A DNA stretch of 36,494 nucleotides from a virus: the UHGV virus genome UHGV-0309737; one strand, written 5' to 3'. The translations under genes were made by a program, and so were the position numbers. Shown piece after piece: positions 1,808 through 15,285 of this stretch. Below the pieces are notes generated by a model that saw only the letters and a program-made list of their open reading frames with translations, was not told where the DNA came from and ran no database searches. How positions within the stretch are numbered: position 1 is the first letter of the stretch; every line of letters begins with the position of its first letter.

Positions 1808-2374
1808 TCAGCGCACCTGCAGTGAACGTTCGCCTATTTCAATATGGGCGCCCGGAACAGGGTTTAAGAGCTCTTCCGGGATTTCCCCACCATCTGCGCT
1901 AATCTGAGCCGCTGCCGCTTCTGCTGACTCGATAGCCTCTTTGATTGCCTTTTTGTCAGGCGCAACTACTGTCTGAACAGTCACCAATTCATCCGGGAGT
2001 AAATCAACGTTATCGATCACCACGTTGATTGCACCTTTACGGGCGGTGAAGGTGTTTTTTGCCGTTTTTACGGTATCCTGTCCGGCGGCCAACAGGCACT
2101 GGAGAACATATTTCTTCAGGTTGGTGATCTTACCTTCGAAAGACTTTTTACGGGCGGCCAGGCGTTTGGCTTCTTCGTCGCAGGTTTTCGCCAGACCTTC
2201 AAGGTTGCGAACGTGGACGAATACCGCGTCCAGTTTGTCGCCGAGCTGCAGCTCGAGCCCCTCCATTGTATCGGCGATCATTTCAGCTGACAGACCAGAA
2301 CCGTCTTCGTTTTCAAGAAGCGCCTGGAGTTTAGACATATCAGCAGCGATAGCAATTGCGGTTGTGGAAGTCAT
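1808..2374 (-). CDS. Sipho_Gp157-family protein (accessory protein of phage recombination modules)
   Basis: 188 aa; coiled-coil N-terminus, conserved ...PDKKAIKEAIESAE...GERSLQVR C-terminus typical of Gp157 family; stop overlaps start of downstream recombinase. Confidence 0.7.
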   Translation of the reverse strand: MTSTTAIAIAADMSKLQALLENEDGSGLSAEMIADTMEGLELQLGDKLDAVFVHVRNLEGLAKTCDEEAKRLAARKKSFEGKITNLKKYVLQCLLAAGQDTVKTAKNTFTARKGAINVVIDNVDLLPDELVTVQTVVAPDKKAIKEAIESAEAAAAQISADGGEIPEELLNPVPGAHIEIGERSLQVR

Positions 2375-4518
2375 TATGCTTTCTCCTCGGCTTTATTCAG
2401 TTCTTTGATGCGGCCGTCTTTAATCGTAATGAGTCGGCGCAAGCGGCCAGACAGATAGCGTTCATGTTGCGCGTCACCGTTGGCCTGTGCGGCCTTAATG
2501 TGAACATCGATTTCACGTGCGATAGGGGAGAACACGCCGTTTATTTCGTTCACTGTCACGCCATGTGCCAGAGTGTTAGCAACACGGCTGAGTTTGTCGT
2601 CGAATTCCTGGCGAAGACGTACTGCGTCTTCTGCGGTTTCGCTGGCATTCTTCAGATCAAACTCTGCCTTGTTTCTCTGGCGGTATTCCAGATTGTCGTA
2701 AAGGCCCATGAAGATATCGCCACTGAAGCCGAGGCCAGATAAAGCCTTTTTGGTTGCATCAGTCAGCGATTTTTTTGTTGCCTCACCATCGCAGGTGATC
2801 CCGTACTTACTGCCGTAAATGTATGGCGTGCAACCGTAGGCCGTTTCCTCGCCGCGCACACCATTCAGGATGTACCAGAGTCGCACGGTAACGACGTGAT
2901 GCTGCTCGTTGACGGTATTTCCATTCCCGTCGAGCACTAACTCCCATGATGCATTGTTATCTTTCCCTTTCACCTGGCGTGTAATGGGGGCGCCGATATC
3001 GAAACGTTCCTCGAGGATGTCCACACCCCAGCCGATTCCCTTTGGCCCAAACTCGCGAGTGGCAAGCATGGTTAAATAGGTACCGTTGATCGAGGTACCG
3101 CCGCCGTTCTGCGTAAAGGCTTTAGTAAACCGTTCATCAGTTTTGAATACACGTTTCCACAGTTCTAAATTGTCCTGTCCGATACTCTGTGCGCCGGCAG
3201 ACTTCATTACTTCTTCAGCGTCAGGCAGTCTTTCAGCATGAATAATTTGCTTTGCCAGCACCTCGGCGTTATCAGCTATTGTTTCCGCTTTAGCGCTTAA
3301 CTTCTCTACTGGCTGTTCTGCATCACCAGAGGCATATACGCCATAGCCCATATCGTTGAGCGTCTCACGCGCCTGTTTGGCCTGGGTATCGGTTACCACC
3401 GGCTGTGGCGCTTCCGCTTTTTCGACCACGTTTGAGGTGGTATTTTGCGTTGCCTCTGGTTGTTTAACGGATCCTGTCTCGGTTTCTTCAAAGCGGCCGT
3501 TTGCTTCCAGCCATGAATCAATGTGGCGGCGTAGGCTGTCAGGGAAATGGTAGGTATCTTTTGCCGGTACGTTCTGCACTACGCCAAAAATACTGTCTCG
3601 GTCATATTTGAGAATGTGCTCCGTGGTGCGAAGCGCCATTGACCAACGTTTAAAATCTTCGCGCTCGTCTGCAATGATTTTCTCAGCATCGCGAAGGTTT
3701 CCTGATAATACTGGCGCGTCGGGAGAAATAGGGAGTAGGGCGACAGCGATCTCCTGATCCAGTGTTGCATAGGTATGTTTATAACCACGTTTTGGCGCGA
3801 TTTTAACGTTGGTATCAGTGCTGGCGGCGCCGAGTGAGGAATTTTGGCCTGGTACCATTTCTTCACGTTTGCCAGGATTCTCAAGCCAGCGTTTTACAAA
3901 TTGAGAAATAGCCGCTTTGCCCGGAGTCTGGTTTTCAAAATGGGAGAAAATGCCCTGAATAAGATTATTCAGCCCTTCAACATGCATGTGCTTAACTGGT
4001 TCGTTATTGTGCAGAGCACACAGAACGTTAAGGTTAAAACGATCTTCTTCTTCCAGTTCTGTATCACGGTTATTCAGGTTATCCAGATAATCCACAACCT
4101 GAGAATAAAGATGGCCATCAATTGCCGCGGTACTAAACAGCAGGACGGCAGCAAAGCGTTCGCCAGGAGAAACAGTCATCAGATCGATAACATCATCACC
4201 AGTGGGTAAATTTGATTCCTCACCGGCGGTACCGTTCGCGGCGATGGAAACCCATTTTTCACCGTCGAAAGTATGTTGCTGGGCGAATAGCTCGTCGAAC
4301 TGGCCAACGGTCGGCAGCGGCTGGCCTTCTTCGTGTTCCCACAGCTTCGGTTTAAAATAGTTGTCACCGTTCGCCGGGTAAGATTCCCAGAGTTTGCCGG
4401 TGATAATGCTTTCGGCGATTTTCTTGTTTGGTGCTTCGACGGCGATCGCCAGCTGCACGGCGCCGCAGTCTTTGATAGCCGATTTTTTTGGCTCGAATAA
4501 GCCGTTGTAGATGGTCAT
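2374..4518 (-). CDS. 714-aa recombination protein: C-terminal Rad52/Sak-type single-strand annealing domain with a ~450-aa N-terminal domain of unknown function
   Basis: Motif ...EETAYGCTPYIYG...EATKKSLTDATKKALSGLGFSG... matches Rad52/Sak signature (EAVTDALKRALRSFGNALG); position equals lambdoid bet/erf slot; GAGGAAAGACCAATG start cassette. Confidence 0.6.
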   Translation of the reverse strand: MTIYNGLFEPKKSAIKDCGAVQLAIAVEAPNKKIAESIITGKLWESYPANGDNYFKPKLWEHEEGQPLPTVGQFDELFAQQHTFDGEKWVSIAANGTAGEESNLPTGDDVIDLMTVSPGERFAAVLLFSTAAIDGHLYSQVVDYLDNLNNRDTELEEEDRFNLNVLCALHNNEPVKHMHVEGLNNLIQGIFSHFENQTPGKAAISQFVKRWLENPGKREEMVPGQNSSLGAASTDTNVKIAPKRGYKHTYATLDQEIAVALLPISPDAPVLSGNLRDAEKIIADEREDFKRWSMALRTTEHILKYDRDSIFGVVQNVPAKDTYHFPDSLRRHIDSWLEANGRFEETETGSVKQPEATQNTTSNVVEKAEAPQPVVTDTQAKQARETLNDMGYGVYASGDAEQPVEKLSAKAETIADNAEVLAKQIIHAERLPDAEEVMKSAGAQSIGQDNLELWKRVFKTDERFTKAFTQNGGGTSINGTYLTMLATREFGPKGIGWGVDILEERFDIGAPITRQVKGKDNNASWELVLDGNGNTVNEQHHVVTVRLWYILNGVRGEETAYGCTPYIYGSKYGITCDGEATKKSLTDATKKALSGLGFSGDIFMGLYDNLEYRQRNKAEFDLKNASETAEDAVRLRQEFDDKLSRVANTLAHGVTVNEINGVFSPIAREIDVHIKAAQANGDAQHERYLSGRLRRLITIKDGRIKELNKAEEKA

Positions 4519-4878: not shown

Positions 4879-5202
4879 TTAAAACGGTACGTCGCTTTCT
4901 TCAATCGGAGAGTGGTCGATGCACAGCAGCTGCTGGATCTGGTCTTCAATAACGCTTAACTGTTTGTTGGCATCAGCAGATATTTGCTCTTTCTTCGCGC
5001 GAAGGGCATTAACCTGCATCCCGATAATATCGATAGGCTCTAAAGCAGGAATGGCAATCTCTACCGTTTTGGTAGTAACAAGCACGTACGAATCAGGATA
5101 TTTCTGTGACATGTCACAGGTGAATGAGTGATAAGACGTTGGTAGATATGGATTGGTTGTTGCCATAACGTAGATAGTTACGGGGATGGTAAGCGCTTCC
5201 AT
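4879..5202 (-). CDS. Hypothetical protein (first gene of leftward operon)
   Basis: ATG at 5202 with AAGGAG SD (MEALTIPVTIYV...); six-frame track extends it to a GTG at 5289 adding an Arg-rich N-terminus (see findings). Confidence 0.5.
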   Translation of the reverse strand: MEALTIPVTIYVMATTNPYLPTSYHSFTCDMSQKYPDSYVLVTTKTVEIAIPALEPIDIIGMQVNALRAKKEQISADANKQLSVIEDQIQQLLCIDHSPIEESDVPF

Positions 5203-5321
5203 AGCGACTCCTTGGTGATGTATACTCAGAGCCGATCGGCGACTCTGTCGTTGGTCTTTCCTCGCTACAGGGTTGGTCCCCTGTAGCACTCCTGGCGGAT
5301 TGGTCTCCGCTGGGGTAAATC

Positions 5322-5726: not shown

Positions 5727-6182
5727 TTATTGCTTTCGTGTGGCTAGTAACTCTCTAAATAAACGATCAAAACCTTCCACTTTCTCTTTTAAATCAGATA
5801 AATGCCGTTCTTTTTCGCTCTGTGGTAGTCTTTCATACAAATCAATGAGTTCTGCATGTTCTGGGCTAAGTAGCTTCCAGCCTGGCCCTGATCGATCTTC
5901 TAGATACTCACCTGACTTTCTAACGTAATTCATCATTTCAGCCAGATCAGGCCGAATCTCTTCTGGTTTCACTCCAAGAAGTGAGGCGAATTTTAAAGTG
6001 GCATCGGTATTTAGTGGCGTAGTGCCATTTAAGTAATGGCTTACTGACGCCTGCGTGCTGAAGCCAAGCACCTCCGCTGCCTTCTCCTGAGTCAGACGTA
6101 AAGTTACTTTTTTTTCGTTCCAGATTTCACGAAGGCGTTTAGCTGCTTCGCGTTCAACGGCGTCAATGGTTTTCTTTCTCAT
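5727..6182 (-). CDS. Prophage repressor, XRE-family HTH (CI-analogue) lacking S24/LexA-like peptidase domain
   Basis: 151 aa; N-terminal HTH (LTQEKAAEVLGFSTQASVSHYLNG); divergent from cro-like gene; C-terminal 90 aa have no Ser/Lys peptidase motifs. Confidence 0.8.
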   Translation of the reverse strand: MRKKTIDAVEREAAKRLREIWNEKKVTLRLTQEKAAEVLGFSTQASVSHYLNGTTPLNTDATLKFASLLGVKPEEIRPDLAEMMNYVRKSGEYLEDRSGPGWKLLSPEHAELIDLYERLPQSEKERHLSDLKEKVEGFDRLFRELLATRKQ

Positions 6183-6229: not shown

Positions 6230-6265
6230 TTGACGAAAAATATTAACGTTATTAATATTCATAAT
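6230..6265 (+). promoter_or_regulatory. Putative PR promoter with palindromic OR operator
   Basis: TTGACG(6230-6235)-17 bp-TAATAT(6253-6258); operator AATATTAACG/CGTTATTAATATT 6239-6259 (inverted copies of the OL motif). Confidence 0.6.
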
Positions 6266-6285: not shown

Positions 6286-6522
6286 ATGATGAAACTGAAA
6301 GACTACTTAAAAACATCTGGTGTTCGTCAGCATGAGTTCGCCGTACTAGTTGGGAAAACTCAAGGCTATGTAAGCCGAATCGCTGCTGGGGAATGCTTTC
6401 TGTCTGCTGCATCAGCATTGGTATGGTCAGCAGCAACTAATTACCAGGTAACTCCACACGATCTGCTCCCAAGCATTTATCGGAAGCCAACCGATGGACT
6501 ACCAGAACAGGATGCAGCTTAA
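6286..6522 (+). CDS. Cro-like HTH regulator (YdaS/Cro family)
   Basis: 78 aa, HTH (VRQHEFAVLVGKTQGYVSRIAAG), divergent to repressor. Confidence 0.75.
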   Translation: MMKLKDYLKTSGVRQHEFAVLVGKTQGYVSRIAAGECFLSAASALVWSAATNYQVTPHDLLPSIYRKPTDGLPEQDAA

Positions 6523-6540
6523 CAATCTGCGTGATCTAAA

Positions 6541-6558
6541 TCTGATTACGCTTAATCA
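6541..6558. repeat. 18-bp palindromic element TCTGATTACGCTTAATCA (copy 2); identical copy at 1626-1643
   Basis: exact 18/18 identity; inverted half-sites TGATTA/TAATCA. Confidence 0.8.
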
Positions 6559-6582
6559 ATTTTCAGCGACAGGAGACGCGAA

Positions 6583-7029
6583 GTGGAGAACCTCGAGGAA
6601 CTGAAACGAGAGATATTCAGCTGGGCAGCTGAAAGCGGGCAGGAGCTGGTTGCTATCGAGATAAGCCGTATGTGGTTTCGTCTCGGTGGTAACACCGGCG
6701 TGCTGAAGCTGCACCAGATTGAAGATGCAGACGGAAATGCAGACTGGCGGGCCATCAACAATAACCGCCAACAGATTTTTCGCTGGCTGCGTGGTGAGAC
6801 GAAAGCGGCCAGAACTAAAACCCAGACGCTGGCTAAAGCGATGGAAGCGGCACTGCCGGCAGAACGCTACGCGCGCCTGGACATGTCCACCCAGTATTTG
6901 ATCTGCGTCGCTATACGCGAATTTGCGGCGGCCATTATCGCGTTATTGCTCGAGGCCAGAGACGGCCCGCAGCAAGTCGCGAAGGCATTGCAAGCGATGC
7001 GAGAAACACAGCGCCTGACCAGCGTTTAA
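6583..7029 (+). CDS. YdaT-like (CII-analogue) regulator
   Basis: 148 aa following Cro-like gene as in Rac ydaS-ydaT; ...RQQIFRWLRGETK... resembles YdaT ...QKIFRWVEKDT...; GTG start. Confidence 0.6.
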   Translation: MENLEELKREIFSWAAESGQELVAIEISRMWFRLGGNTGVLKLHQIEDADGNADWRAINNNRQQIFRWLRGETKAARTKTQTLAKAMEAALPAERYARLDMSTQYLICVAIREFAAAIIALLLEARDGPQQVAKALQAMRETQRLTSV

Positions 7030-11328: not shown

Positions 11329-11963
11329 ATAACGAAAACGAAATCACAGCAGCACTAGCATATATCTATAAATGCCGCGAGCTTTCAGGCTGCCCGGCTG
11401 GCGTAGACCTTCAGGACTGGGTGAAGCAGCTGGCGGCGGAGAATGCGTACTTGATACCTAAAGCCGCTAGCGAACTGTCAAATGCCTGGGTGCTTCATAA
11501 GTACCTAATCGGCATTCAAGCGGCGATTATGTATCTGGATAATGGAAACAAGAAGGCCGCGCAGGAATGGCTGTATGGAACTATTGCTGGTCCGGGATTT
11601 GAGTTCCCTGACGAGGTTGACGATATCGACGCATGGGCAACTCATCAGATGCGCGGCAGCATAAGCCATCCGCGCGCACTTGAAATAATCAAGGAAGAAA
11701 CTCCTGCCACCGATCGCATCGTAGCCGGGATTAAGGCTGATGGTCGCGTTGAAGGTGCGCACTTTGTGGCTAACCGTATGCTGGCTGCATGGGATGCAGG
11801 TTTTATCGAAGACTCAGCCAAAAACGCCGCCGATATCGCCCGTATGATTCTCTCCTCAACCGAGTTTATGGCAGATGCGCCAGAGGGTGATTTCGACCGT
11901 TCTTTTGCTGATGGCATCTTGGCAGATATCGCCAAGCAGCTGCGCGAGGGGGCCGACAAATGA
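11325..11963 (+). CDS. Hypothetical protein
   Basis: 212 aa, overlapping start/stop with neighbours. Confidence 0.5.
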   Translation: MNNENEITAALAYIYKCRELSGCPAGVDLQDWVKQLAAENAYLIPKAASELSNAWVLHKYLIGIQAAIMYLDNGNKKAAQEWLYGTIAGPGFEFPDEVDDIDAWATHQMRGSISHPRALEIIKEETPATDRIVAGIKADGRVEGAHFVANRMLAAWDAGFIEDSAKNAADIARMILSSTEFMADAPEGDFDRSFADGILADIAKQLREGADK

Positions 11964-13400: not shown

Positions 13401-13597
13401 TGGATAAGTGCCAAGGTGTTTTCGGAAAGATATTTGGTCATTCATTCCGGGTGGCGATAACAAAAGGCTCACCTGACTTAAGGCTAGGCGAATATCATGG
13501 TGGGCGAGGCGTTCTGTTAGACATTATGGAAAAAACTAGGCGCGAAACCTATCACGGAATTTACTGTAAGCGCTGCGGAAAGGTTATCGATGGCTAA
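13400..13597 (+). CDS. Hypothetical small protein
   Basis: 65 aa, CKRCGK motif. Confidence 0.4.
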   Translation: MDKCQGVFGKIFGHSFRVAITKGSPDLRLGEYHGGRGVLLDIMEKTRRETYHGIYCKRCGKVIDG

Positions 13598-13928
13598 GAC
13601 ATCAGCAGAGAGAAAGGCCGCGCAGCGCGCGCGGCAGTCCGCCGCCGGTGAGAGAAAGCTCGAGCTGGTGCTGGATGAGCAGGAGCAGGAAATGCTGGCG
13701 CGCAATTGTGCCGCCCGTCGCCCTGGTCGCGATCCCTATGAAATGGCCGAGTATATCGCGTTGCTGATCCGCCAGGATGATGCGCGGGTTCGCGGCCGTA
13801 TAAAGTCCATCGGTAAACGCCAGTGCGGTAAGTGCGGCGATCAGCTTCCGGTGGCATCATGCCCGTGCGCTGGTGATTCTCAGTGCTGGGTTACTTATGG
13901 GTGGCATGAGATGAAAATCGTTGCGTGA
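13590..13928 (+). CDS. Hypothetical protein with C-terminal Cys cluster
   Basis: 112 aa; CGKCGD...CPCAGDSQC. Confidence 0.45.
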   Translation: MAKTSAERKAAQRARQSAAGERKLELVLDEQEQEMLARNCAARRPGRDPYEMAEYIALLIRQDDARVRGRIKSIGKRQCGKCGDQLPVASCPCAGDSQCWVTYGWHEMKIVA

Positions 13929-13952
13929 TGTTCAACCATACCAGAAACTCCA

Positions 13953-13982
13953 AAGCCGCCAGAAATGGCGGTTTTCTTTTTA
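13953..13982 (+). terminator. Intrinsic terminator
   Basis: GCCGCCA-gaaa-TGGCGG then TTTTCTTTTT. Confidence 0.7.
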
Positions 13983-14041
13983 ATTCAATCGGATATTTGA
14001 TATTTTTTCTATGTTTTTTAACACATTGTGCTCTTAAGGAT

Positions 14042-14094
14042 TTGCGATTAAGAACTTATGGGAGTATATATACTGTGAATTTATACAGTATAAT
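14042..14094 (+). promoter_or_regulatory. SOS-regulated promoter: sigma70-like elements with a consensus LexA box
   Basis: TACTGTgaatttatACAGTA at 14071-14090 (CTGT-N8-ACAG, perfect consensus); TTGCGA(14042-47)-17-TATATA(14065-70); TATAAT at 14089-14094. Confidence 0.75.
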
Positions 14095-14114
14095 TATTGG
14101 GGGGTTTAGGAGTT

Positions 14115-14306
14115 GTGGTTGATAAGAACGATGCAGGAGTCCTGCTCCCCGATGATGGCGACGTCCTGATAAGGTGCAAAAGTGGTAAGGCAAGAAAGCT
14201 CCGTGATGTAAAGCCGGACGAGCATATCGCAACACTTAACGCGTTGTTTGAATTAGCTAAATTGTCTGGTTACACCATTATAAAACCAGACGGGACTGTG
14301 CTATAA
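14115..14306 (+). CDS. Small LexA-controlled protein, candidate antirepressor
   Basis: 63-69 aa ORF (GTG 14115 or TTG 14097) after AGGAG SD, immediately downstream of LexA box in AT-rich islet. Confidence 0.45.
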   Translation: MVDKNDAGVLLPDDGDVLIRCKSGKARKLRDVKPDEHIATLNALFELAKLSGYTIIKPDGTVL

Positions 14307-14374
14307 TTAACACGTTGGCTTGAACACCCAACGCACTGTATTTCTGAGCAATTGCTGCGCTAAAGGGGAACCCA

Positions 14375-14971
14375 ATGGCGCAGTATTCTTTTGTAAAAGC
14401 ACCAGGCAATGTATTAATTCCGGCGACGCCTGATGCGCGCGAATTTTTAGAAAAAAAAGTCCGCATGGGCGGTATTTTGTATGCGGATTTTAAGCAGGCA
14501 AGAAACCCGGCATTCCACCGTAAATTTTTTGCCCTCCTGAATCTGGGCTTTGATTACTGGCAACCGTCCGGCGGAGCAATATCGCCAGCCGATAAAAAAC
14601 TGGTACACGGCTATGTGCAGCTGGTGGCCCACTATGCCGGGCATGCCGACACTTTGCAGGAACTGGCGGATCAGTATCTCCGCGATGAAGCAGAAAAACG
14701 CGCCGGGAATATCAGCGCGGTAAAATCGTTTGAAGCATTCCGTTCCTGGGTGACTATCGAAGCCGGTTTTTATACCGAATACCAGATGCCTGATGGCACT
14801 ACCCGCAAAGAACCCAAATCCATATCGTTCGCAAAAATGGACGATGTAGAATTTACCCAGCTGTATAAATCCGTATTAGACGTCCTCTGGAATTTTATTT
14901 TATTCCGCACCTTCCCAACACAGCAGGCAGCAGAAAACGCCGCCTCACAATTATTCAGCTATGCCGCGTGA
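14375..14971 (+). CDS. DUF1367-family phage protein (NinB/Orf-like region)
   Basis: 198 aa; MAQYSFVKAPGNVLIPATPDARE... recognised family from enterobacterial prophages. Confidence 0.6.
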   Translation: MAQYSFVKAPGNVLIPATPDAREFLEKKVRMGGILYADFKQARNPAFHRKFFALLNLGFDYWQPSGGAISPADKKLVHGYVQLVAHYAGHADTLQELADQYLRDEAEKRAGNISAVKSFEAFRSWVTIEAGFYTEYQMPDGTTRKEPKSISFAKMDDVEFTQLYKSVLDVLWNFILFRTFPTQQAAENAASQLFSYAA

Positions 14972-15285
14972 GAAATATCGCCATGACCAAAGACGATAAA
15001 CGCTGGCTGGAAGACGTTGCATCATTGGGTTGCGTCGTATGCAGAAATCTAGGCTACGGCGCCACACCTGCAGAAGTTCACCATATCCGCAAAGGGCAGG
15101 GCATAGCCCAGCGCGCCGACCATAAAAAAACACTCCCGCTTTGCCCGCCACACCATAGAACCGGCGGACATGGCGTAGCTATCCACGCAGGGCAAAAAAC
15201 GTGGGAAGAAAACTACGGTACCGAATCTGAATTACTCAATCAGGTAACCGCTGAGGTGGGGGAATTACGTTTATGCAGAATTTAA
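14968..15285 (+). CDS. Ref-like HNH-type nuclease (recombination enhancement function family), putative
   Basis: GCVVCR...PAEVHHIR...D...LPLCPPHH...G.H. metal-binding/HNH pattern; GTGA overlap with upstream gene. Confidence 0.45.
   Translation: MRNIAMTKDDKRWLEDVASLGCVVCRNLGYGATPAEVHHIRKGQGIAQRADHKKTLPLCPPHHRTGGHGVAIHAGQKTWEENYGTESELLNQVTAEVGELRLCRI

What the first reader, a model, noticed from the sequence alone, without database searches (positions are those of the whole stretch)
13930..14375. Perfect LexA box driving a small ORF in an AT-rich islet, in a prophage whose repressor cannot autocleave
TACTGTgaatttatACAGTA (14071-14090) is a consensus SOS box overlapping a sigma70-like promoter. 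It sits just after an intrinsic terminator and before a 63-69 aa ORF with an AGGAG SD.

The 151-aa repressor has an HTH but no S24 peptidase domain, so RecA-stimulated self-cleavage is unlikely. A LexA-controlled antirepressor, as in Tum of phage 186 or the Gifsy/Fels antirepressors, is the expected induction route, and this ORF is the only candidate. The ORF shows no similarity I recognise to known antirepressors.
Basis: partly seen in the sequence, partly recalled or inferred. Interest (0 to 1): 0.7.

Follow-up and report, generated by a model that had tools for sequence, protein, structure and literature searches.

The report
LexA-controlled Rem-type prophage antirepressor gene
A Klebsiella-type prophage keeps a 63-residue antirepressor gene switched off by the host DNA-damage repressor LexA, the same induction route already shown for Salmonella Gifsy prophages, so this is a clear but ordinary new member of a known system.

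Summary
TACTGTGAATTTATACAGTA lies at 14071-14090. It is the only good LexA box in the window. It follows an intrinsic terminator and abuts a -10 hexamer, 24 nt before a small ORF in an AT-rich patch.

The ORF is a real gene of 63 aa that starts at GTG 14115. All 41 distinct DNA copies found are intact, and their differences fall mainly at third codon positions. Every one of 53 related loci carries a CTGT-N8-ACAG box upstream, including distant Serratia and Symbiopectobacterium copies.

The protein belongs to PHROG 340 together with E. coli Qin Rem, the tested antirepressor of DicA (hhalign probability 93%). It occupies the slot of gftA in Gifsy-2, between the LexA promoter and the irsA/DUF1367 gene. 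The same module forms the C-terminal domain of larger Ant-, KilA-N- and Rha-type proteins.

The 151-aa repressor has no S24 domain. Its C-terminal 47 residues are 40% identical to those of DicA.

Verdict: interpretation supported; a new member of a known kind; modest interest. Two by-products may be worth more. One is the conserved repressor tail shared by five HTH classes. The other is a covarying TATAAT-plus-hairpin element before DUF1367. Protein binding and LexA occupancy remain untested.

The parts
13952..13985 (+). Intrinsic terminator closing the upstream early operon (stem AAAGCCGCC/GGCGGTTTT, then a T-run).
   Evidence: 10-pair stem, 5 GC pairs; sequence.
14042..14070 (+). Candidate sigma-70 promoter of the antirepressor gene: -35 TTGCGA (14042-14047), 17-nt spacer, -10 TATATA (14065-14070).
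   Evidence: Read. The same geometry is kept in about 40 of 48 distinct upstream sequences whose spacers are unrelated. The strict consensus scan did not call it. The transcription start is inferred, not mapped.
14071..14090 (+). LexA (SOS) box TACTGTGAATTTATACAGTA. It abuts the -10 and covers the expected transcription start.
   Evidence: A box at the equivalent place occurs in all 53 related loci.
14099..14112 (+). Purine-rich ribosome-binding region (GGGGGG ... AGGAG) ahead of the GTG start.
   Evidence: Purine-rich tracts are conserved before the GTG in homologues.
14115..14306 (+). 63-aa Rem-family (PHROG 340) antirepressor gene with a GTG start.
   Evidence: PHROG 340 at E 1.5e-16. hhalign of the family against Rem gives probability 93%, E 2.9e-7. 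All 41 distinct DNA copies are intact, with differences by codon position of 5.9/3.6/15.1 and GTG in 40 of 41. The AF2 model has pLDDT 86.9.
14299..14333 (+). Conserved extended -10-like TGCTATAAT (14299-14307, overlapping the stop codon), followed by hairpin CGTTGG-CTTGAACAC-CCAACG (14313-14333). Function unknown.
   Evidence: 4 of 6 stem pairs show compensatory changes; 91% of cells paired against 24-50% in slid controls. Searches give 37 distinct hairpins upstream of DUF1367 or DUF968 genes. There is no Rfam match.
14375..14971 (+). DUF1367 (IrsA / NinB-like) gene, always the next gene after the antirepressor.
   Evidence: Pfam DUF1367 at E 3.5e-84. It is 56% identical to Gifsy-2 STM1020. 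It is present downstream in every locus that extends far enough to show it.
14968..15285 (+). RecA-dependent-nuclease / DUF968-like gene (105 aa), probably in the same transcription unit.
   Evidence: Pfam RecA_dep_nuc at E 2.1e-14 and DUF968 at E 3.6e-7.
5727..6182 (-). 151-aa prophage repressor: an N-terminal HTH with no S24 peptidase domain. This is the presumed target.
   Evidence: Pfam HTH_31 and HTH_3 only. Weak similarity to Gifsy-2 GtgR.
5730..5870 (-). C-terminal module of the repressor (residues 105-151, LSPEHAELIDLYERLPQSEKERHL...LFRELLATRKQ), shared with DicA. Proposed antirepressor contact (inference).
   Evidence: 40% identity and 77% similarity to DicA 85-131, E 7e-12. Conserved in 46 of 47 repressor-slot proteins across 5 HTH classes.
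6239..6259 (.). Palindrome AATATTAA-N5-TTAATATT in the repressor/cro intergenic region. Candidate operator.
   Evidence: I5, 100% complementary; sequence. Not tested further.
6286..7029 (+). Cro/YdaS-like HTH gene (6286-6522) and YdaT/cII-like gene (6583-7029), divergent from the repressor. This is a RacR-YdaS-YdaT-type immunity layout.
   Evidence: phrog_35 at E 7.2e-20. Pfam YdaT_toxin at E 1.3e-21 and phrog_163 cII-like.

Best explanation
This is the SOS-sensing arm of the prophage's lysis-lysogeny switch.

In the lysogen, host LexA binds the box at 14071-14090. The box abuts the -10 hexamer and covers the transcription start of a promoter placed just after a terminator. This keeps a 63-aa Rem-family antirepressor (GTG 14115 to 14306) silent. 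A GTG start and an awkwardly spaced ribosome-binding site probably keep leaky expression low.

DNA damage activates RecA, LexA cleaves itself, and the antirepressor is made. It then binds the 151-aa DicA/Gifsy-type repressor, which has no self-cleavage domain, and takes it off its operators between 6183 and 6285. The cro-like and early genes are then expressed and the prophage is induced.

Shown here: the box, the promoter geometry, the terminator, coding selection, family membership, synteny, and the repressor type. Inferred: LexA occupancy, protein-protein binding, and the contact surface. I suggest that surface is the conserved C-terminal tail of the repressor.
For: - Box and context: there is a single consensus LexA box, placed after a terminator. 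A box lies upstream of the homologous ORF in all 53 loci, 46 of them with distinct upstream sequences, including unrelated contexts in Serratia and Symbiopectobacterium. The -35/17/-10/box geometry is conserved.
- Real gene: the ORF is under protein-coding selection and keeps a GTG start.
- Family: it is in PHROG 340 at E 1.5e-16. Qin Rem is in the same PHROG at E 4.4e-21. Rem derepresses the DicA-controlled promoter 165-fold (PMC10448788). hhalign of the 51-sequence family against Rem gives probability 93%, E 2.9e-7. Against GftA it gives probability 50%, E 1.6e-4, in register.
- Domain fusions: the module is the C-terminal domain of proteins with P22_AR_N, KilA-N or Rha N-terminal domains. 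It also gives weak hits to two 'anti-repressor' PHROGs, in 16 and 12 of 19 members.
- Synteny: Gifsy-2 has terminator, LexA box, dinI, gftA (GTG start), then irsA/DUF1367, the last 56% identical to the window gene. Gifsy antirepressors are LexA-controlled and bind repressors of about 140 aa that are not cleaved (PMC3121763).
- Repressor: it has an HTH only and no S24 domain. Its C-terminal 47 aa are 40% identical to those of DicA.
Against: - Similarity to tested antirepressors is remote: 22% identity to Rem over 46 residues, and no BLASTP hit to GftA. PHROG 340 is labelled 'unknown function', and Pfam has no match.
- E. coli rem loci have no LexA box.
- Antirepressor variants do not co-vary with repressor classes. 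Spearman correlation is 0.17 with the C-terminal module and -0.01 with the HTH domain, against 0.69 with the neighbouring DUF1367 gene.
- One locus (L013) pairs the same ORF with a 258-aa repressor-slot ORF in which I read an S24-like motif by eye (no domain search was run on it).
- The strict promoter scan did not call the promoter.
- No structural relative was found that could show how the protein might bind.
- Nothing here tests binding or induction.
Confidence: 0.8

Rival explanations
1. The LexA-controlled promoter mainly serves the downstream recombination and repair genes (DUF1367/NinB-like and the RecA-dependent-nuclease-like gene). On this reading the unit is an SOS-induced recombination operon, and the small ORF is an accessory SOS modulator rather than the induction trigger.
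For: No terminator separates the small ORF from DUF1367. DUF1367 follows the ORF in every locus that extends far enough. The next gene hits RecA_dep_nuc. In Gifsy phages the LexA unit also carries dinI and irsA.
Against: The small ORF is homologous to Rem and sits in the gftA slot. Deleting dinI or irsA had no effect on Gifsy induction, whereas the antirepressor alone was sufficient (PMC3121763). A conserved -10-like TATAAT and hairpin between the ORF and DUF1367 suggest that the downstream genes have their own control.
Confidence: 0.08
2. The protein is an antirepressor whose main targets are other, heteroimmune prophages in the same cell. It would give cross-talk and synchronised induction, while its own prophage is induced by another route.
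For: Near-identical copies of the ORF are combined with at least five repressor HTH classes, and in L013 with a 258-aa repressor-slot ORF that looks S24-type by eye. Gifsy and Fels-1 antirepressors act across heteroimmune phages, and FsoA is dispensable for its own phage (PMC3121763).
Against: The window's own repressor lacks any cleavage domain, and no other LexA box or antirepressor candidate exists in the window. All short repressors in the related loci share the same C-terminal tail, so the prophage's own repressor is a plausible target too.
Confidence: 0.08
3. The box is a chance palindrome in AT-rich DNA and the ORF is not functional.
For: Short AT-rich palindromes are common in AT-rich spacers. 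The strict promoter scan found no promoter.
Against: 0.085 such boxes are expected per window. All 53 loci keep the box. The ORF shows a clear coding signature across 41 distinct copies, and the family has 62 cluster representatives.
Confidence: 0.01

Closest known systems
Rem of the E. coli K-12 Qin cryptic prophage, antirepressor of DicA (Ragunathan et al. 2023, PMC10448788)
   Same: Both are in PHROG 340, and the profile match to Rem has probability 93%. Both are small stand-alone proteins. The partner repressor is a short HTH protein with the same C-terminal tail. The gene sits upstream of DUF968/DUF1367 nin-like genes, and a YTGAAC-loop hairpin follows it.
   Different: Rem is 83 aa with an extra N-terminal segment and is only about 22% identical. 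No LexA box lies upstream of rem in Qin, mEp460, PPompW or Rac, and its inducing signal is unknown. Here the gene is placed directly under a consensus LexA box.
Gifsy-1/-2/-3 antirepressors GfoA, GftA and GfhA with repressors GfoR, GtgR and GfhR (Lemire, Figueroa-Bossi and Bossi 2011, PMC3121763)
   Same: The logic and layout match: terminator, LexA box overlapping the promoter, a small antirepressor ORF with a non-ATG start, then irsA/DUF1367. The repressor is about 140-150 aa and is not cleaved. The antirepressor tolerates heteroimmune repressors.
   Different: There is no dinI gene between the box and the antirepressor. GftA belongs to another PHROG (4847) and is only marginally alignable. 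The GfoA sequence could not be obtained here.
Ant of Salmonella podophage SPC32H (Kim and Ryu 2013; cited from my own knowledge, the paper is not held)
   Same: It is a small antirepressor whose promoter overlaps a LexA box (TACTGTATGTTTATACAGTG), paired with a non-cleaved repressor.
   Different: The protein family is unrelated: PHROG 450, with hhalign probability 2%. The gene lies among tail genes rather than in the nin-like region.
Tum of coliphage 186 and AntC of N15
   Same: Both are LexA-controlled antirepressors that inactivate a non-cleavable repressor (as summarised in PMC3121763).
   Different: Tum is 146 aa and has a DinI-like half. The window ORF has no DinI signal in Pfam. Neither sequence was compared directly.
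Large Ant-type antirepressors (P22_AR_N, KilA-N or Rha N-terminal domains)
   Same: Some of them carry the PHROG 340 module as their C-terminal domain (P0078, P0065, P0091).
   Different: The window protein is that module alone, with no N-terminal domain.

Membership tests
Rem family (PHROG 340) antirepressors | Significant match to the family profile | tested here: met
   phrog_340 at E 1.5e-16 covering profile positions 12-72 of 85. All 19 homologues match. Rem itself scores E 4.4e-21.
Rem family (PHROG 340) antirepressors | Direct profile-to-sequence homology to the tested member, Rem | tested here: met
   hhalign of A3 against Rem: probability 93.2%, E 2.9e-7, 46 columns. With the shallow alignment A1 the probability was only 36%.
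Rem family (PHROG 340) antirepressors | Partner repressor of DicA type (short HTH protein with the DicA C-terminal tail) | tested here: met
   Repressor residues 105-151 against DicA 85-131: 40% identity, E 7e-12. Both hit phrog_5736 positions 82-130.
Rem family (PHROG 340) antirepressors | Relieves repression by its partner repressor | not testable with these tools
   Needs reporter or induction assays.
Gifsy-type LexA-controlled antirepressor module | LexA box overlapping the promoter of the antirepressor transcription unit | tested here: met
Gifsy-type LexA-controlled antirepressor module | Small ORF with a non-ATG start between the LexA promoter and irsA/DUF1367 | tested here: met
   GTG in 40 of 41 distinct copies. 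DUF1367 is 56% identical to Gifsy-2 STM1020. Gifsy-2 layout.
Gifsy-type LexA-controlled antirepressor module | dinI homologue as the first gene of the unit | tested here: not met
   Only 24 nt separate the box from the ORF start. No protein here has a DinI hit above threshold.
Gifsy-type LexA-controlled antirepressor module | Repressor of about 130-155 aa without an S24 domain or cleavage site | tested here: met
   Pfam finds HTH only. 46 of 47 related loci carry 128-154-aa repressors.
Gifsy-type LexA-controlled antirepressor module | Sequence homology to GftA or GfoA | tested here: inconclusive
   BLASTP finds nothing. hhalign against GftA gives probability 50%, E 1.6e-4.
SPC32H Ant family (PHROG 450) | Sequence membership | tested here: not met
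   SPC32H Ant is in phrog_450. hhalign probability is 2%.
Tum (phage 186) family | DinI-like C-terminal half | tested here: not met
   No DinI hit for the small ORF even at E up to 10. The Tum sequence itself was not compared.
LexA regulon member | LexA binds the box, and the gene is induced by DNA damage | not testable with these tools
   Only the consensus match and its conservation are shown.

The most novel reading that the evidence does not exclude
The 63-aa antirepressor recognises the conserved C-terminal tail of about 47 residues (L-x-L-F/Y-x-x-LPxSEK...LFxELL) rather than the variable DNA-binding domain. That tail is shared by DicA and by short repressors of at least five HTH classes. 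One LexA-controlled protein would then act as a master key that co-induces heteroimmune prophages.

In addition, the TATAAT-plus-hairpin element with a YUGAACA loop, between the antirepressor gene and DUF1367/DUF968, would be an undescribed cis-regulatory RNA. It is conserved from E. coli Qin through Salmonella Gifsy-2 to Serratia.
Probability: 0.3. Interest if true: 0.55.

Novelty: new member of a known kind. Interest (0 to 1): 0.3.

Why it matters
The result gives a function to a gene family that databases label as unknown (PHROG 340, no Pfam match). It also shows how a common group of Klebsiella, Raoultella and Serratia prophages probably senses DNA damage. This matters for predicting which antibiotics, such as quinolones, will induce these prophages and move their genes.

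The system itself was described for Gifsy prophages in 2011 and for Rem in 2023, so the main finding extends known biology and does not change it. The more open questions are the two by-products: the shared repressor tail as a possible common docking site, and the conserved hairpin element.

Tried and rejected
- Pfam on the small ORF and four homologues, up to E = 10: nothing meaningful.
- megablast of the region against complete E. coli genomes: only the DUF1367 edge matched.
- tblastn of the ORF against the phage records: 3 records only.
- BLASTP against GftA: no alignment.
- SPC32H Ant, tested as a possible relative: rejected.
- PDB sequence search with the family profile: only noise at E above 0.3.
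- Co-variation between antirepressor and repressor variants, sought as evidence of specific pairing: none found.
- Rfam on the whole window and on the region: no family.
- The Kim and Ryu 2013 paper is not held.
- A literature search on DUF1367/irsA gave nothing relevant.
- A 55-aa ORF (phrog_34610) found in the same slot in other loci might be GfoA-like, but it shows no profile similarity to this family. Its identity could not be checked.

Full report
**What is in the sequence**

TACTGTGAATTTATACAGTA lies at 14071-14090. It matches the enterobacterial LexA consensus TACTG(TA)5CAGTA at 17 of 20 positions, and all three mismatches fall in the degenerate spacer. CTGT-N8-ACAG occurs twice in the window against 0.37 expected. 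The second copy, at 5104-5119, has a GC-rich spacer and lies inside an ORF. A perfect core with an AT-rich spacer occurs once against 0.085 expected per shuffle, and no other near-consensus box exists in the 36.5 kb.

An intrinsic terminator lies at 13952-13975 and is followed by a T-run. GC content drops to 0.34-0.39 over 13900-14200.

The strict sigma-70 scan finds no promoter. Reading the sequence gives TTGCGA (14042-14047), a 17-nt spacer, then TATATA (14065-14070) directly abutting the box. About 40 of 48 distinct upstream sequences from relatives keep this geometry while their spacers differ. Bound LexA would cover the -10 edge and the transcription start. That start is inferred, not mapped.

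**The ORF is a real gene**

The mechanical ORF starts at TTG 14097 (69 aa). Nineteen homologues align from the position of GTG 14115, which gives a 63-aa protein.

I recovered 52 full-length copies from related loci. The 41 distinct DNA sequences are all intact. Pairwise differences by codon position are 5.9, 3.6 and 15.1, and the start codon is GTG in 40 and ATG in 1. The family is small. An exhaustive HMMER search of 1.84 billion cluster representatives finds 62 at E of 0.001 or better.

**The LexA box is a conserved property of the gene**

A scan of one genome per species gave 5 loci (Raoultella, Serratia, Symbiopectobacterium). IMG/VR gave 54. In all 53 loci with upstream sequence, 46 of them distinct, a CTGT-N8-ACAG box lies upstream of the start codon: 15-24 nt in the main clade and 44-53 nt in the distant Serratia and Symbiopectobacterium copies. 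This holds for loci whose surrounding upstream DNA is unrelated (L005, L006-8, L014-16, L033, L061).

**What the protein is**

Pfam has no match. PHROGs places the protein in phrog_340, labelled "unknown function", at E 1.5e-16.

The literature supplied the link. Lemire et al. (PMC3121763) showed that Gifsy prophage repressors of about 140 aa are not cleaved. Instead they are bound and inactivated by small antirepressors (GfoA, GftA, GfhA). These are made from a LexA-controlled unit, dinI-antirepressor-irsA, that lies outside the immunity region. They also noted that DicA and RacR belong to the same repressor group.

Ragunathan et al. (PMC10448788) then followed a PSI-BLAST chain from GfoA and FsoA to Rem of the Qin prophage. 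They showed that Rem derepresses the DicA-controlled promoter 165-fold.

I fetched Rem from MG1655. It is a phrog_340 member at E 4.4e-21, over the same profile positions as the window protein. A profile of 51 diverse family members aligns to Rem with probability 93% and E 2.9e-7 over 46 columns. The shared motif is roughly G-R-x-L-I-x-x-x-N-G...D-E-H/F-V-A/T-S-L-x-A-L-x-E-L-A-x-x-A-G-Y/F.

The same profile aligns to Gifsy-2 GftA in register, but only at probability 50% and E 1.6e-4. It does not align to SPC32H Ant (probability 2%), which belongs to phrog_450.

The module also occurs as the C-terminal domain of larger proteins whose N-terminal domains are typical of annotated antirepressors:
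- P22_AR_N / phrog_524 "anti-repressor Ant" in P0078
- KilA-N in P0065
- Rha in P0091

In addition, 16 of 19 family members weakly hit the C-terminus of phrog_4792 "anti-repressor", and 12 of 19 hit phrog_2379 "anti-repressor".

**Synteny**

In Gifsy-2 (NC_010393) the order is as follows:
- a terminator
- a promoter with TACTGTGTTTATATACAGTG
- dinI
- gftA (GTG start, 73 aa)
- STM1020

STM1020 is a DUF1367 protein 56% identical to the window's 14375-14971 product. The window has the same order without dinI.

A GenBank record for a Rac-type phage (MN652886) already annotates rem as "prophage antirepressor", followed by irsA (DUF1367). In every related locus that extends far enough, DUF1367 follows the small ORF. 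The E. coli rem loci (Qin, mEp460, PPompW, Rac) have no LexA box. The window family therefore combines a Rem-type protein with Gifsy-type LexA control.

**The repressor**

The 151-aa protein (5727-6182, minus strand) hits only HTH_31 and HTH_3, with no Peptidase_S24. It is transcribed divergently from a Cro/YdaS-like gene (6286-6522; phrog_35) and a YdaT/cII-like gene (6583-7029). This is the RacR-YdaS-YdaT layout. Its last 47 residues are 40% identical and 77% similar to the last 47 of DicA (E 7e-12), and they resemble the tail of GtgR.

Across 47 related loci the repressor slot holds 34 distinct proteins of 128-154 aa, in five HTH classes. All of them share this tail. The one exception is L013, a 258-aa ORF in which I read an S24-like motif by eye; no domain search was run on it.

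Antirepressor variants are shuffled freely among these classes. Spearman correlation with the repressor tail is 0.17 and with the HTH domain -0.01, against 0.69 with the adjacent DUF1367 gene. So there is no sign of specific co-evolution. This fits the cross-reactivity that Lemire et al. saw between heteroimmune Gifsy phages, and it suggests that the conserved tail is the docking site. That suggestion is inference only.

**Structure**

AF2 with the shallow alignment gave pLDDT 60. With the 51-sequence alignment it gave 86.9: a short helix, a beta-hairpin (residues 17-31) and a helix (41-50). No relative was found in BFVD or PDB.

**Mechanism and confidence**

- In the lysogen, LexA holds the promoter shut.
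- DNA damage removes LexA.
- The antirepressor accumulates, binds the repressor and releases it from its operators. A candidate operator is the palindrome at 6239-6259.
- The early operons then fire.

I put 0.8 on this.

Rival readings are weaker:
- An SOS-induced recombination operon in which the ORF is only accessory.
- An antirepressor aimed mainly at other prophages in the cell.
- A chance palindrome next to a non-functional ORF.

The last is excluded.

**By-product**

The spacer between the antirepressor stop codon and DUF1367 holds TGCTATAAT (14299-14307). It overlaps the stop codon and is kept at the DNA level even where the protein C-terminus differs. It is followed by a hairpin at 14313-14333 with loop CTTGAACAC.

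The stem changes by compensatory pairs: GTTGG/CCAAC, GCTGG/CCAGC, GCCGG/CCGGC, ACTGG/CCAGT in Gifsy-2, and GCGGG/CCCGC after rem in Qin. The loop keeps YTGAAC. Four of six pairs show double changes, and 91% of cells are paired against 24-50% for slid controls.

In the 79 analysed there are 37 distinct hairpins, with stems of up to 13 bp. Most lie upstream of DUF1367 (38) or DUF968-like genes (20), and 41 have a LexA box within 1.2 kb upstream. By my own rough estimate the pattern alone could give tens of chance matches in a collection of this size, so the hits with only 2-bp stems may be noise. Rfam has nothing matching. Its function is unknown.

**Verdict**

This is a new member of a known kind. 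The window is a Klebsiella-type prophage (77 of 101 matching phage records), with integrase, Gam-like, exonuclease, O-like and DnaB-like genes upstream.

Noticed in passing
window 14299-14333; also L003 (Gifsy-2) about 11712-11736 and L063 (Qin) just downstream of rem: A conserved extended -10-like TGCTATAAT overlaps the antirepressor stop codon. It is followed by a hairpin whose stem co-varies and whose loop keeps YTGAACA. The element lies upstream of DUF1367 or DUF968 genes in many prophages, has no Rfam family, and its function is unknown.
   Followed up: partly
window 5730-5870 (minus strand); repressor-slot ORFs of L004-L061: The C-terminal tail of about 47 residues (LxLF/YxxLPxSEK...LFxELL) is conserved across five otherwise different HTH repressor classes and is shared with E. 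coli DicA. It may be a dimerisation helix or the antirepressor docking site.
   Followed up: partly
L013 (IMGVR_UViG_2767802184_000002), repressor slot: One related prophage has a 258-aa ORF in the repressor slot that looks like an S24-type CI by eye (no domain search run). It keeps the same LexA-controlled antirepressor gene at 97% identity. The arrangement recalls FsoA in Fels-1.
   Followed up: no
L078, L083, L094, L100, L110, L140 and L079 (IMG/VR loci): In other prophages, different small ORF families fill the slot between the LexA box and the hairpin: a 55-aa ORF in phrog_34610, a 65-aa Rem-like ORF in phrog_31309, and GftA in phrog_4847. The antirepressor position appears to be exchangeable.
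   Followed up: partly
window 5104-5119: A perfect 16-bp palindrome CTGTGACATGTCACAG lies inside the minus-strand ORF 4879-5289 (phrog_2479, unknown function). It matches CTGT-N8-ACAG but has a GC-rich spacer, so it is unlikely to be a LexA site.
   Followed up: no
window 13590-13928: A 112-aa Cys-rich protein (CGKCG...CPCAGDSQC; phrog_536 'transcriptional regulator') has about 80% DNA identity to genes at the right end of epsilon15-like phage genomes. It lies immediately before the terminator, and its role is unknown.
   Followed up: no
L001 (OM816834, 'Stenotrophomonas phage' BUCT708), locus 2116-3767: This record shares about 86% identity with the Klebsiella-type early region. It carries an RloB-domain / ATPase gene pair just upstream of the LexA box, where the window has other genes. 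This may be a moron or defence hotspot, and the host label of the record looks doubtful.
   Followed up: no
window 6239-6259: The palindrome AATATTAA-N5-TTAATATT between the repressor and cro-like genes is a candidate operator.
   Followed up: no
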